Shown in pieces: positions 21,001 to 24,000 of a stretch of DNA of 64,000 nucleotides. Within the stretch, counting starts at the first letter, position 1, and every line of letters begins with the position of its first letter. The stretch spans positions 416,001 to 480,000 of the forward strand of contig CAWCBP010000001.1 in assembly GCA_963793865.1 (NCBI GenBank). Direction: 5' to 3'. The position numbers were made by a program. The DNA comes from an uncultured delta proteobacterium. Lineage in GTDB: Bacteria > Desulfobacterota > WTBG01.

Positions 21001-24000
21001 TGATTTCGAGATGATCTGCATGGACTTGTGGTTTATTTCAAGGAAAAGATCAACATTGCACATCGCAACTTCCAACATCCAAGTCGAATGAAGAAAACAG
21101 TGTCTTTTTCGTTGGAATTTGACGTTAGTTTCGGATTTGATTCTGGACGTGCAGATGCTTCTAATCTGTCGACTGCAAACTGAAAACTGTCAACTAAGCT
21201 AAAGGAGGCGACCCATGACCGTCAACCGAAACGACGTTGTAACCTTTCTTACCGAGGTGAACAGCCGCTTTGAACAATTCTGCGCGCGGTTCAACCCGGG
21301 TGGCAGGGTTGATAAAAAGTCATGGGACACACCCATGGGCAGGCTGGACGCGGTGAGATCATCGGGGGTGGTTTTTGAAAAGGCGGCCTCAATTTTCTGC
21401 GATCTTACCATCGAGACCCCGCCGGTGCTCGCTGAAAAGATCGGCCAGAAAGGCAGCCGGGCCGAGGCGTTTGTGCTGGAGATCAATTGTTACCCGGTAA
21501 ATCCGCACATTCCCCGCGGCTACATGGAGCTGAGGGCCAATATAACCGACACCATAGTTTTCGCCGGGGGGACGGACATCTTTCCTTATTTCCCGGTGGA
21601 AGAGGACGCGGCCTTTTTTGCCGGGGGCATGAAGGAGCTTTGCCATGAGCATGGGCAGGATTACGAAAAACTGAGAAAAACCAGGGCTGATTTCTTTGTA
21701 TCAAAATTCAGAAATGAAAACGTGGGGAGCCACGCGGGGATATACGCCTTCCATCTCGAGGCGCGGGAGTTCCCCTTTTTTAAGGATATGGCGGAATATT
21801 TTTTCAGGCTCTATGGCATGCTGGTGGAGGCGGGCGGGAAAAGAAGCTTCACCGCCGAGGAGCAGCGGCGCATGCGGGAGATTCACGGGGTGTGGGTGGA
21901 ATGGGTTTTGCTCGAGGATGCGGGGACCAGGTACGGTCTGGAAAAAGGGATACCACCTGATGCCCTGCTCGGAACGATCCTCCCGCCTCAGGCGACCTTT
22001 TAAATGGGGGAGGAGCGGCGATGAAAAATGTGCGGCCTTTCAAATATTACGGCTGGCGGGGCAAAATACTGCAGGTTGACCTGACCGCTTCGAAGCTGTG
22101 GGTGGAGGATTTTCCGGAGGATCTGACCGGCGATTACACAGGGGGCGCGGGGGTAAACGCCCGGCTCTTTTACGACCTGGTGCGCGGCAATCCCGACCTG
22201 GATCCCCTGTCGCCCGACAACCCGCTCATCTTCGGGTGCGGACCGGTGGTGGGCACCTCCTTTCCCTGCGCCACGCGCTTCACCGTCACCGCCAAAAGCC
22301 CGCTCACCAGGCTGTTCGGTGATTCCAATGCCGGCGGCTATTTTGCGGTGCGGATGAAGAAGGCGGGATATGATCACATCGTTTTGCGCGGGAAGGCTGA
22401 GCGTCCCTCCGCGCTGCTGATCCAACAGGACGGGGAAGCCCGGCTTGTTGACGCATCGTCATGGTGGGGCCTTGATACCTACAGCGCTGATGAGCGGATC
22501 CTGGAGGCGTACGGTGACTGCGAAACCGCCCGCATCGGGCCCGCCGGAGAACATCTGGTGAGGTACGCCAATATTTTTTCCGGGACAAAGCGGGTGAGCG
22601 CCAATGGCCGGGCGGGCATGGGATGTGTCATGGGTTCGAAAAACCTGAAGGCCGTCATCGTGCAAGGCGACGGGACGGTTCCGGCAGCCCACCCGCGAAA
22701 GCTCAGCGCCCTGGCCAAGCGATATCAGGAGATATGGGGCAAGGGACCTTCAACCATGGTTCAGAAGGAGTTCGGGACCCTGATGCTCATTGCCCAGATC
22801 GGACTCGAGACCTCGACGCGCAATGACCAGGGACGGATTACCCCCGAGGGGCTTGACGCCTACGATCTGGAAAAATTCTTAAGCATCTACAAAAGCGGGA
22901 AATCGGCCTGCTACCGCTGTCCCGTCGGCTGCTCTCAAAAATGGAAAATACCCGAGGGACGGTTTCAGGGGGAGGAAGGCGATAAGATCGAGTTCGGCCA
23001 CTACGTAAGCCTGGGACCGCAGCTGGGCATCTTTGATTTTCCCTCCCTGCTGCACGTGGCCGACCTTTCCAACAAACTGGGCATGGACTGCACCCAGCTC
23101 GGCTGGAACCTTTCCATGGCCATGGAGTGCTTCCAACGGGGAATTATCGGCAGTGAGGAAACCGGCGGGGTGGATCTTACATGGGGTGATGTGAACGGGG
23201 TGTGTGATCTCATGCAGCAAATCGCCCGCCGGGAGGGATTCGGGCGGGTGCTGGCCGACAGCATCCCGGACATGATCGAGCAGTGGGGACCGGAATCGGA
23301 ACCCTACGGATTTCACACCAAGGGAATGACCTTTCCCTACAACCGCCATGCGGTGATGGCCATGAATCTTGCCTCGTCGGTGGCGGCGCGGGGGGCGGAC
23401 CACATGAAGGGCCACCCCTTCTCAGCCCTCACCGGCGCGCGGGACATGCTGGAGCGCATTTTCGGCAGGGACATTCCCGACGAGATGACGGACAGCAAAA
23501 GCCCGGTCGGGAAGGGCCGCGCGGTCTGGTGGCATGAGAATTACAAGATGGCCATGGATTCGCTGGGCCTGTGCTTTATCCCGATGGCGGGAACCACCAT
23601 TTATGGCGATCCCATGATCCTCTTCGAAGAGATGGGGGAAATCTACCAGGCGGTGACCGGCATGGATCCCGGAACGCTCTTTGAGTCAGCCGAGCGGGCG
23701 AACCAGGTTGAGCGCTGCTACAACACGCTGCTGGGCGTCAGCAGGAAGGATGACCGGAGAAAGGGCACGACCCGCGGCGAGGAGGATCCCATCGATCATC
23801 CCGGCATGCTCGATGAATATTATTTCTACCGGGGGTGCTCGAAGGAGGGCAGGCCCACCCGCAGCAGGCTGCGCGAGCTGGGCCTCGAGGATGTGATCGG
23901 GGACCTTGAGAAGCGCGGTTTTCTCGAGGAGCTTGATGCCCCGGCGATTACCGAGCTGGTGGCCCCGGCAGGTTCCGACTGACAGGAGCGGCGGACCGCG

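What a model noticed while it worked through the whole genome (the two positions that open the first line are those of the whole stretch)
21215..23982. Six diverged HemF-like (coproporphyrinogen oxidase fold) paralogs, two paired with tungsten AFOR genes
The genome of this anaerobe holds five full-length paralogs of oxygen-dependent coproporphyrinogen-III oxidase HemF (g00415 C1:437215-438003, g01020 C1:1015341-1016087, g02368 and g02369 C8:197417-198959, g03203 C11:136890-137645) plus a more distant sixth (g02028 C6:141686-142441), only 22-26% identical to each other (g02368/69 56%). Two of them lie directly beside an aldehyde:ferredoxin oxidoreductase gene (g00415-g00416 co-directional 17 nt apart; g01020/g01021 divergent), a pairing kept in 7-8 of 10 genomes of the order and seen in only 13-14 genomes of ~190,000. 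They are therefore unlikely to be the haem-biosynthetic HemF and are proposed to be a lineage-specific family of cofactor-free [...]
Evidence so far: pfam.tsv PF01218 over cut for 5 genes, E 1e-10 to 1e-29; blastp links g02028 to all five (E 1e-7 to 1e-15, call 53). Profile of the five hits solved HemF structures 3ejo E 1e-25, 1vju 1e-24, human 2aex 2e-22 over the full length, with the HemF G-G-x-D-L-T-P strand kept as D..P (D121,P124 invariant) and RRGR-like motif. relatives.tsv: PF01218 in 27/41 class genomes but 33/4551 of the phylum. neighbours.tsv: Coprogen_oxidas next to AFOR_N in 8/10 of the order, 14 of 3390 genomes that have both. In two relatives of another genus (G040:C50, G041:C34) a HemF-like gene (33-39% to g01020) lies in the same 8-kb gene string as a ferrochelatase-fold lipoprotein and an FDBR gene.
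(Added by a program. Inside this text positions count along the whole contig: contig position 416,001 is position 1 of the stretch shown here. "Call 12" and the like, gene names such as g00115 and contig names such as C1 are that model's own, and its searches are not shown. The text may have been shortened before it was handed on; [...] marks where a part breaks off. The agent that wrote the report below was given it as the finding of a first reader that could run no searches.)

Follow-up and report, generated by a model that had tools for sequence, protein, structure and literature searches.

The report
Anaerobe HemF-like genes, not haem enzymes
A strictly anaerobic bacterium carries many diverged copies of an enzyme fold so far known only from oxygen-linked pigment and haem chemistry, and this copy travels with a tungsten aldehyde oxidoreductase and a bilin-reductase-like gene, which points to an undescribed oxygen-free pathway.

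Summary
Window 21215-22003 (+) encodes a 262-aa protein with the coproporphyrinogen oxidase (HemF) fold. A tungsten-type aldehyde:ferredoxin oxidoreductase (AFOR) gene, 22021-23982, follows after 17 nt. The genome holds six intact HemF-like paralogs, 22-26% identical, plus one broken copy.

It is not HemF. It scores 107 bits against the 297-bit HemF equivalog cut-off. None of 101 orthologs carries a canonical HemF motif. All four HemF-invariant His and four of six invariant Arg are replaced. The genome shows no haem oxygenase, terminal oxidase or ferrochelatase.

HemF-like proteins form six clades confined to this class. AFOR adjacency is limited to two clades (12-13 of 32 loci) but involves at least six AFOR lineages, so it is recurrent. 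Two conserved layouts combine HemF-like, AFOR and FDBR-like genes.

Best reading: an oxygen-independent, ferredoxin-linked enzyme acting on an unknown hydrophobic pyrrole or aromatic substrate. The substrate and chemistry are inferred, not shown. An earlier look at this genome noted other FDBR-like pairs.

The parts
21215..22003 (+). HemF-like protein, clade A (262 aa). It has the coproporphyrinogen oxidase fold with a remodelled pocket.
   Evidence: PF01218 at 101 bits; NCBIfam HemF equivalog 106.7 bits against a 297-bit cut-off. AF2 model pLDDT 94.6; Foldseek TM 0.84-0.87 to solved HemF. Motif and residue test.
22021..23982 (+). AOR-type aldehyde:ferredoxin oxidoreductase (AFOR1, 653 aa), 17 nt downstream of the HemF-like gene and with its own ribosome-binding site.
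   Evidence: AFOR_N plus AFOR_C. Best solved relatives are AOR 9mqx and 1aor at E 1e-71 to 1e-74. Cys297, 300, 304 and 518 are invariant in 16 AFORs. Orthologs follow the HemF-like gene in relatives.
24007..24714 (-). FDBR-like protein (235 aa), convergent with AFOR1 and downstream of AFOR2.
   Evidence: PF05996 at 61.6 bits (cut-off 31); FDBR equivalogs at most 49 bits against 263-327. Weak hits to PebB and HY2 structures, with the D-L-x-P Asp kept. The same position is conserved in L021, L145, L148 and L151.
24936..26785 (-). Second AFOR (AFOR2), read here as two ORFs (25952-26785 and 24936-25955) because of a 1-nt deletion.
   Evidence: AFOR_N and AFOR_C fall on separate ORFs. The two ORFs are in different frames. 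Relatives L020 and L021 read GGGAGAGG where the window reads GGGGAGG, and are in one frame.
20205..20978 (+). PNPOx-like split-barrel protein upstream of the HemF-like gene. The true start is probably later than 20205.
   Evidence: PNPOx_N at E 4e-12; a weak HugZ-family hit at E 3e-4, far below its cut-off. Conserved upstream of the HemF-like gene in L020, L021, L143-L146, L151 and L188.
27044..28495 (+). FAD-dependent oxidoreductase resembling geranylgeranyl reductase.
   Evidence: DAO and FAD_binding_3; GG-red-SF subfamily at 67.7 bits, below its cut-off. Kept in L021. The same kind of gene recurs beside HemF-like clades B, C and D.
18907..20262 (-). Sigma-54-dependent response regulator, divergent from the cluster.
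   Evidence: Response_reg, Sigma54_activat and HTH_8. Kept in L021, L143 and L145.
16873..18727 (-). Sensor histidine kinase, read as two overlapping ORFs (17690-18727 with HAMP/PAS; 16873-17880 with HisKA/HATPase).
   Evidence: Pfam. Whether the split is real was not examined.
28820..29675 (+). Possible degenerate FDBR-like remnant in two frames.
   Evidence: Weak hits of my own FDBR-like profile at E 1e-4 and 5e-4. PF05996 at 22 bits, below the cut-off. No Pfam family at E 1e-5 for ORF 28925-29458.

Best explanation
The gene at 21215-22003 belongs to an anaerobe-specific radiation of the coproporphyrinogen oxidase (CPO/HemF) fold. It no longer makes protoporphyrinogen. It keeps the fold's core and two conserved Asp, D121 and D235. 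It has replaced the His and Arg residues that canonical HemF conserves with a different, equally conserved polar and aromatic set: E89, Y103, E105, R157 and H224.

It is co-transcribed with an AOR-type tungsten enzyme. It forms a conserved module with an FDBR-like protein, and in a second layout with a 2x[4Fe-4S] ferredoxin as well.

I infer that it is an oxygen-independent enzyme of a ferredoxin-linked pathway. In that pathway the AFOR either supplies low-potential electrons or converts an acid/aldehyde group of the same substrate, while the two CPO/FDBR-fold proteins bind and transform a hydrophobic, weakly acidic pyrrole-type or aromatic compound.

Shown: the fold, the loss of HemF signatures, the conserved clustering, and the restriction to this class. 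Inferred: catalysis, the ferredoxin link, and the nature of the substrate.
For: Not HemF:
- The score is 106.7 bits against the 297-bit equivalog cut-off.
- 0 of 101 orthogroup members carry any of four canonical HemF motifs; 20 of 149 library representatives carry all four.
- Of 52 columns at least 95% conserved in 20 canonical HemFs, the 82-row orthogroup consensus differs at 26. These include all 4 His columns and 4 of 6 Arg columns. The replacements are themselves fixed: Y103, E105 and R157 in 82 of 82 rows.

Fold: pLDDT 94.6, and TM 0.84-0.87 to solved HemF structures.

Organism. In a 98.6%-complete genome there is no haem oxygenase, no COX1, no cytochrome bd, and no ferrochelatase or HutW over their cut-offs.

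Clustering:
- HemF-like followed by AFOR1 orthologs, with an FDBR-like gene convergent after it, is seen in L021, L145, L148 and L151.
- A second co-directional layout reads unknown, FDBR-like, DUF2284, ferredoxin, AFOR, HemF-like. It occurs in L060, L158, L160 and L163, except that the unknown first gene was not found in L160.
- AFORs beside HemF-like genes fall in at least six separate AFOR lineages.
- In the metagenome loci at 67% identity or more that have at least 500 nt downstream, 9 of 12 have an AFOR next.

Distribution. HemF-like and FDBR-like genes are present in the same 32 class genomes and absent from the same 10.

Family link. Profile-profile comparison joins the two families at 83% probability and E 9e-6. 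An FDBR-like protein fused to a ferredoxin domain lies beside a HemF-like gene.
Against: - There is no activity, ligand or expression-level data.
- AFOR adjacency is absent from clades C, D (1-2 of 23) and F, from 9 of 17 clade A loci in the class, and from all 28 metagenome loci at 59% identity or less.
- These genomes carry 11-36 first-look AFOR candidates each, so some adjacency is expected by chance.
- Genomes of one class are kin, so the co-occurrence rests on perhaps three independent events.
- No fused HemF-like form was found.
- The neighbours of the six clades differ: Amidohydro_2, FAD oxidases, CCG proteins, corrinoid components. This fits many substrates rather than one pathway.
- Published work places the CPO and FDBR active sites on opposite faces of the sheet (PMC13446030, passages). 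A shared mechanism is therefore not implied by the shared fold.
Confidence: 0.5

Rival explanations
1. Non-catalytic ligand-binding or carrier protein. On this reading the CPO-fold paralogs only hold hydrophobic substrates or products and hand them to partner oxidoreductases (AFOR, GGR-like flavoenzymes, amidohydrolases). Each clade would be a specificity module.
For: Each clade sits beside a different kind of enzyme. The residues canonical HemF conserves are lost.
Against: D121 and D235 are kept in at least 90% of 114 family members, and E55-K56 are kept as in HemF. Clade A fixes a new set of polar residues, E89, Y103, E105 and R157, in 82 of 82 rows. That pattern is more typical of an active site than of a passive pocket.
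Confidence: 0.2
2. The AFOR adjacency has no functional meaning. It would be a by-product of very many AFOR genes per genome plus inherited synteny, and the HemF-like protein would work in an unrelated process.
For: The genome has 29 AFOR_N matches. AFOR is absent beside most HemF-like genes (72 of 88). AFORs are also numerous in class genomes that lack HemF-like genes, with 4-20 first-look candidates.
Against: Direct adjacency is about eight times my rough expectation: 11 of 88 observed against about 1.5% expected per gene. It recurs with at least six AFOR lineages and in two different gene orders. The gap is 13-28 nt in several loci.
Confidence: 0.15
3. One copy is a true oxygen-dependent HemF used for haem synthesis in micro-oxic episodes.
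For: The Pfam match is full length and public sources name the orthologs coproporphyrinogen III oxidase. R107, D121 and D235 are kept.
Against: The equivalog cut-off is missed by 190 bits. All four invariant His and four of six Arg are replaced in 82 orthologs. No ferrochelatase is over its cut-off, and there is no oxidase or haem oxygenase. The other five paralogs are even further from HemF.
Confidence: 0.03

Closest known systems
[quoted passage not shown]
   Same: Same fold over the full length, at TM 0.84-0.87 and 22-25% identity. Shared motifs: E-K, N-P-x-x-P, G-G-x-D-x-x-P, Y200, and D-x-G-T.
   Different: All four HemF-invariant His and four of six invariant Arg are replaced, and the pocket residues become aromatic or aliphatic. 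The score is far below the equivalog cut-off. The host is an anaerobe without the protoporphyrin branch. The gene is multi-copy and sits beside AFOR and FDBR-like genes.
HemF2 of the tolyporphin cluster (non-canonical HemF acting on protoporphyrinogen IX)
   Same: It is a precedent for a diverged HemF paralog with a changed pocket and substrate (PMC10548856, passages read).
   Different: HemF2 is still described there as a tetrapyrrole propionate decarboxylase of a cyanobacterium. The family here lives in an anaerobe and lacks the HemF catalytic signatures. No sequence comparison with HemF2 was made.
Ferredoxin-dependent bilin reductases and pre-PcyA lineages (PF05996); RCCR
   Same: Same fold (Foldseek TM 0.5-0.63; PMC10151467 and PMC13446030, passages). 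They are cofactor-free, ferredoxin-fed enzymes. A profile-profile link aligns D121-x-x-P with the FDBR D-L-x-P motif. FDBR-like genes share clusters and genomes with HemF-like genes.
   Different: The protein studied here is not matched by PF05996. Known FDBRs act after haem oxygenase and sit with globins, V4R or B12-binding proteins (PMC10151467, passages). This genome has no haem oxygenase and the neighbours are AFOR, ferredoxin, DUF2284 and flavoenzymes.
AOR-type tungsten aldehyde:ferredoxin oxidoreductases (Pyrococcus AOR; AorABC)
   Same: AFOR1 aligns end to end with solved AORs. Ferredoxin-like genes precede several AFORs in this genome.
   Different: None of my paper searches found an AOR paired with a CPO-fold or FDBR-fold partner.

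Membership tests
HemF (oxygen-dependent coproporphyrinogen III oxidase) | Pfam PF01218 domain over the gathering score | tested here: met
   101 bits against 31.8, covering residues 10-261.
HemF (oxygen-dependent coproporphyrinogen III oxidase) | NCBIfam equivalog NF003727 over its cut-off | tested here: not met
   106.7 bits against 297.
HemF (oxygen-dependent coproporphyrinogen III oxidase) | Canonical motifs NPH.P..H.N.R, GGG.DLTP, R.E.RG.GG and RGRY.EFN...DRGT, taken from the solved HemFs aligned | tested here: not met
   0 of 101 orthogroup members carry any of the four motifs.
HemF (oxygen-dependent coproporphyrinogen III oxidase) | Four invariant His and six invariant Arg. Their roles in metal or carboxylate binding are recalled from the literature, not tested here. 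| tested here: not met
   The His columns become F/Y, Y, A and Y/F. The Arg columns become V, H, Q/V and E/A. Only R107 and R166 are kept.
[quoted passage not shown]
   TM 0.84-0.87 to 5eo6, 3ejo, 8t7w and 3e8j.
HemF (oxygen-dependent coproporphyrinogen III oxidase) | Pathway context: a ferrochelatase or protoporphyrin branch in the genome | tested here: not met
   The best PF00762 match is 24.1 bits, under the 27-bit cut-off.
HemF (oxygen-dependent coproporphyrinogen III oxidase) | O2-dependent decarboxylation of coproporphyrinogen III; homodimer | not testable with these tools
   This needs an enzyme assay.
FDBR (ferredoxin-dependent bilin reductase), for the neighbour at 24007-24714 | PF05996 over the gathering score, and an equivalog-level match | tested here: inconclusive
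   Pfam is met at 61.6 bits against 31. Equivalogs reach at most 49 bits against 263-327.
FDBR (ferredoxin-dependent bilin reductase), for the neighbour at 24007-24714 | A haem oxygenase that supplies biliverdin | tested here: not met
   PF01126 gives 0 matches in the 98.6%-complete genome.
AOR family (tungsten aldehyde:ferredoxin oxidoreductase), for 22021-23982 | AFOR_N plus AFOR_C, and the four Cys of the [4Fe-4S] site (their role is recalled) | tested here: met
   Both domains are present. C297, C300, C304 and C518 are invariant in 16 AFORs. Metal content is not testable here.

The most novel reading that the evidence does not exclude
The CPO-like and FDBR-like proteins of this class are the enzymes of an oxygen-free pathway. 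That pathway reduces or trims tetrapyrrole-type compounds (porphyrinogens, bilins or their fragments) with electrons from tungsten AORs and ferredoxins. If so, the CPO/FDBR/RCCR fold diversified in anaerobes independently of O2. This runs against the published proposal that its families arose as an adaptation to oxygen (PMC10151467, passage read). The two families, reported to lack significant sequence similarity (PMC13193486, passage read), would be linked through these anaerobe sequences.
Probability: 0.2. Interest if true: 0.85.

Novelty: new variant of a known kind. Interest (0 to 1): 0.66.

Why it matters
Every characterised enzyme of this fold (HemF/CPOX, FDBRs, RCCR) depends directly or indirectly on oxygen. 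One published view ties the fold's origin to the rise of oxygen (PMC10151467, passage).

This genome runs against that picture. It is a strict anaerobe without haem oxygenase, terminal oxidases or ferrochelatase, yet it carries about 7 CPO-like and about 15 FDBR-like genes. Its class averages about 11 FDBR-like matches per positive genome.

Three things follow:
- It offers testable candidates for oxygen-free chemistry on this fold.
- It gives tungsten AORs a new kind of partner.
- It flags a systematic mis-annotation, because public sources name these proteins coproporphyrinogen III oxidase.

Tried and rejected
- Complex prediction of AFOR1 with the HemF-like protein gave no verdict, with scores of 0.00 in both runs. 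It is not used either way.
- A sigma-54 -24/-12-like site lies at 21144-21159. The loose pattern occurs at chance level in the window (27 found, 24.9 expected), and the site is not kept in the closest relative L021. It is not claimed.
- The search for fused or longer forms of the protein found none at E 1e-5 among 1414 candidates. This is weak evidence.
- Sequencing runs. RNA-library contigs from sediment runs X2, X3 and X4 cover parts of the HemF-like and AFOR1 genes at 90-99% identity. They are contigs, may contain DNA, and none bridges the 17-nt gap, so transcription and co-transcription are not shown.
- The ESM Atlas look-up returned only CPO-named clusters.
- Metagenome scan. The first try with alignment A3 failed for lack of a conserved stretch. 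A narrower alignment, A7, worked.
- AFOR copy numbers across the class. I set the E-value so low that no match was listed, so only first-look candidate counts are available.
- Paper searches found nothing describing this family or an AOR/CPO/FDBR pairing. Two of them used a genus name that I only guessed.
- Greedy ORF calling produced some spurious opposite-strand ORFs, such as L066:3115-3831 over the PNPOx gene, and one fused ORF in an error-rich assembly (L068:3969-5738). 'Within n genes' counts are therefore approximate.
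Full report
THE OBSERVATION

The two genes are where the finding says. ORF 21215-22003 (+) is 262 aa and has an AGGAGG site 6 nt before its ATG. 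ORF 22021-23982 (+) is 653 aa and starts 17 nt after the first gene's TAA, with its own GGAGGAG site. Pfam gives Coprogen_oxidas (PF01218) at 101 bits against a 31.8 cut-off for the first, and AFOR_N plus AFOR_C for the second.

The genome is 98.6% complete. It has five PF01218 matches over the cut-off at the stated places. The sixth copy has no Pfam match but is found by a profile of the family. My own profile also finds a seventh copy broken into two pieces at C1:1165330-1166245. Identities among the six are 22-26%, and g02368/g02369 are 56% identical.

IT IS NOT HemF

The NCBIfam HemF equivalog scores 106.7 bits against a cut-off of 297.

I took four motifs from the solved HemFs aligned. 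Of 149 library representatives, 20 carry all four. None of the 101 members of this protein's orthogroup carries any.

I then looked at 52 columns that are at least 95% conserved in 20 canonical HemFs. The 82-row orthogroup consensus agrees at 26 and differs at 26:
- All four His columns change, to F/Y, Y, A and Y/F.
- Four of six Arg columns change, to V, H, Q/V and E/A.
- Kept residues include N96, P97, P100, R107, G118-G119, D121, P124, Y200, D235 and T238.
- The replacements are themselves fixed: E89, Y103, E105 and R157 in 82 of 82 rows, and H224 in 77 of 82.

The roles of the lost His and Arg in HemF (metal binding, propionate binding) are recalled from the literature and were not tested here.

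The fold is intact. The AlphaFold2 model has pLDDT 94.6 and pTM 0.91. Foldseek places it on solved HemFs at TM 0.84-0.87, followed by PebA, PcyA and RCCR at 0.5-0.63.

THE ORGANISM

The genome shows none of the following:
- a haem oxygenase match;
- a ferrochelatase over its cut-off;
- a haem-copper or cytochrome bd oxidase;
- a HutW-type enzyme over its cut-off.

It has 29 AFOR_N matches. These resolve into 20 full-length AFOR ORFs and 8 split or partial ones.

THE FAMILY

The orthogroup is common in metagenomes. The search returned 100 clusters at 45-95% identity, and wherever a source gives a name it is coproporphyrinogen III oxidase. It is nevertheless isolated: among 1.84 billion representatives only 3 score E 1e-30 or better.

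In the class, PF01218 is found in 30 of 42 genomes, with 1-6 matches each. In an even sample of the phylum, a family profile hit 13 of 401 genomes. All 13 are in this class. The other 388 genomes had no match: one class genome and 387 from outside the class.

I fetched 5 kb on each side of 79 class hits. These, with the window and five earlier loci, make 85 loci holding 88 HemF-like ORFs. I built a FastTree of the 82 ORFs of 230-330 aa (6 left out), 3 library representatives and 8 canonical HemFs as outgroup. It resolves six clades, each with 100% local support:
- clade A: the window gene;
- clade B: g01020;
- clade C: g03203;
- clade D: g02368 and g02369;
- clade E: g02028;
- clade F: not found in this genome.

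Each clade has its own residues at the pocket positions. For example, positions 103/105/107 read Y-E-R in A, L-N-E in B, M-V-E in C and H-N-E in D.

CONTEXT IN THE WINDOW

In order:

| Coordinates | Strand | Gene |
|---|---|---|
| 16873-18727 | - | sensor histidine kinase |
| 18907-20262 | - | sigma-54 response regulator |
| 20205-20978 | + | PNPOx-like protein |
| 21215-22003 | + | HemF-like protein |
| 22021-23982 | + | AFOR1 |
| 24007-24714 | - | FDBR-like protein (PF05996, 61.6 bits) |
| 24936-26785 | - | AFOR2 |
| 27044-28495 | + | geranylgeranyl-reductase-like flavoenzyme |

AFOR2 is split here by a 1-nt deletion relative to two relatives.

CONTEXT ELSEWHERE

AFOR near HemF-like genes in the class:

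| Clade | Loci with an AFOR within 4 called ORFs | Source |
|---|---|---|
| A | 7 of 17 (8 if a fused ORF in an error-rich assembly is counted) | |
| B | 5 of 15 | |
| C | 0 of 17 | |
| D | 1-2 of 23 | |
| E | 1 of 4 | |

Directly adjacent AFORs occur at 11 of 88 genes. My rough expectation from AFOR density is about 1.5% per gene.

An AFOR tree puts the neighbours of clade A in at least four or five separate AFOR lineages, and those of clade B in two. The pairing is therefore recurrent rather than one inherited synteny.

In 56 further clade A loci from metagenomes:

| Identity to the window protein | AFOR adjacency |
|---|---|
| 67% or more | follows the gene in 9 of 12 loci with at least 500 nt downstream |
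| 60-62% | precedes the gene in 4 of 7 loci with at least 500 nt upstream |
| 59% or less | none of 28 loci |

Two layouts contain all three families:
- Type 1 is the window's own: PNPOx-like, HemF-like, AFOR, then a convergent FDBR-like gene. It is also seen in L021, L145, L148 (no PNPOx-like gene seen there; 490 nt upstream) and L151.
- Type 2 is a co-directional string with gaps of 13-181 nt in L060: unknown protein, FDBR-like, DUF2284, 2x[4Fe-4S] ferredoxin, AFOR, HemF-like. It occurs in L060, L158, L160 and L163; the unknown first gene was not found in L160.

FDBR-like genes lie within 5 kb of HemF-like genes in about 16 of 85 class loci. One of them is fused to a ferredoxin domain. Other recurrent neighbours are GGR-like flavoenzymes, Amidohydro_2, FAD_binding_4, CCG proteins, FMN reductases and corrinoid components.

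THE FDBR-LIKE EXPANSION

This genome has 11 PF05996 matches over the cut-off. With my own profile it has 10 strong and 5 weaker FDBR-like ORFs. In the class, 32 of 42 genomes have 5-19 matches each, 362 in all.

The 32 positive genomes are the same 32 that hold HemF-like genes: 30 by Pfam, plus G001 and G002 by the family profile. The same 10 genomes lack both.

Two caveats apply. These genomes are kin, and absence of HemF-like genes in 9 of the 10 rests on the less sensitive Pfam search.

Genomes without HemF-like genes still have 4-20 first-look AFOR candidates. The protein is therefore not a general AFOR maturation factor.

THE LINK BETWEEN THE TWO FAMILIES

hhalign of 38 HemF-like against 11 FDBR-like proteins gives 83% probability and E 8.7e-6 over 147 columns. 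It aligns D121-x-x-P124 with the FDBR D-L-x-P motif, and D235 with the FDBR D-P-G motif. Three clade B proteins are hit directly by the FDBR-like profile at E 4e-5 to 5e-4.

Published work reports a shared fold but no significant sequence similarity between CPO and FDBR (PMC13193486, PMC10151467 and PMC13446030; passages read). It also places the active sites on opposite faces of the sheet (PMC13446030). I do not infer a common mechanism from the alignment.

HOW IT MOST LIKELY WORKS

Shown:
- a CPO fold with a remodelled and strongly constrained pocket;
- loss of the HemF signatures;
- an anaerobic host;
- tight, recurrent clustering with AOR-type enzymes, FDBR-like proteins and ferredoxins.

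Inferred:
- The protein is an enzyme rather than a relic. D121, D235 and the clade-specific polar residues are conserved.
- It works without O2.
- It belongs to a ferredoxin-linked pathway. The AFOR either supplies low-potential electrons or acts on a carboxylate or aldehyde group of the same substrate.
- The substrate is less acidic and more hydrophobic than coproporphyrinogen, because four Arg are lost and F, V, W and Y are gained.

Whether the substrate is a tetrapyrrole-type compound or an aromatic acid cannot be decided from these data.

Rival readings, with my confidence in each:
- a non-catalytic carrier protein (0.2);
- adjacency to AFOR without functional meaning (0.15);
- a true HemF (0.03).

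COMPARISON WITH WHAT IS KNOWN

The only non-canonical HemF I found in print is HemF2 of the tolyporphin cluster (PMC10548856, passages). No search returned a paper on this family or on an AOR paired with a CPO or FDBR partner. Earlier notes of this scan describe other FDBR-like pairs in the same genome with ferredoxins and GGR-like flavoenzymes. My census confirms that those genes exist.

WHAT DID NOT HELP

- The complex prediction gave no verdict.
- The sigma-54-like site is not supported.
- The RNA-library contigs show presence only.
- No fused forms were found.

Noticed in passing
window 24936-26785 (-): The second AFOR is split into two ORFs by a 1-nt deletion (GGGAGAGG in two relatives, GGGGAGG here). 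At least five other AFOR genes of this genome are also in two or three pieces. This could reflect assembly indel errors or ongoing decay of a very large paralog family.
   Followed up: partly
genome C1:1165330-1166245 (outside the window): A seventh HemF-like copy is broken into two overlapping ORF pieces. My family profile hits them at E 2e-25 and 1e-20.
   Followed up: no
L006:3114-3878 (genome C1:1011113-1011874): A 254-aa ORF with no Pfam family lies 3.5 kb from g01020 and its AFOR. It is hit weakly by both my HemF-like profile (E 0.003) and my FDBR-like profile (E 1e-5), so it may be a bridging member of the superfamily.
   Followed up: no
L129:3197-4198: A protein fuses a 2x[4Fe-4S] ferredoxin domain to an FDBR-like domain. 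It lies beside a clade E HemF-like gene in a relative.
   Followed up: partly
class genomes: FDBR-like genes (PF05996) number 5-19 per genome in 32 of 42 genomes of this non-photosynthetic class, 362 matches in all. One whole family of the class has none (0 of 8 genomes).
   Followed up: partly
L008 and L045/L077 (HemF-like clades C and B): Some HemF-like genes sit with the components of a corrinoid methyl-transfer system: RACo activator, B12-binding protein, and a URO-D-family methyltransferase.
   Followed up: no
window 16873-18727 (-): The sensor kinase upstream of the sigma-54 regulator reads as two ORFs that overlap by about 190 nt. This may be another frameshift.
   Followed up: no
window 30215-33082 (+): A 2-oxoacid:ferredoxin oxidoreductase pair (POR_N/PFOR_II and TPP_enzyme_C) is followed by an ACT-domain protein, about 6 kb downstream of the cluster. 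No link to the cluster was examined.
   Followed up: no
genome C14:334947-336848 and C13:4270-6177: Two AFOR genes on different contigs are almost identical, with tree branches of 0.008 and 0.003. This may be a recent duplication or an assembly redundancy.
   Followed up: no
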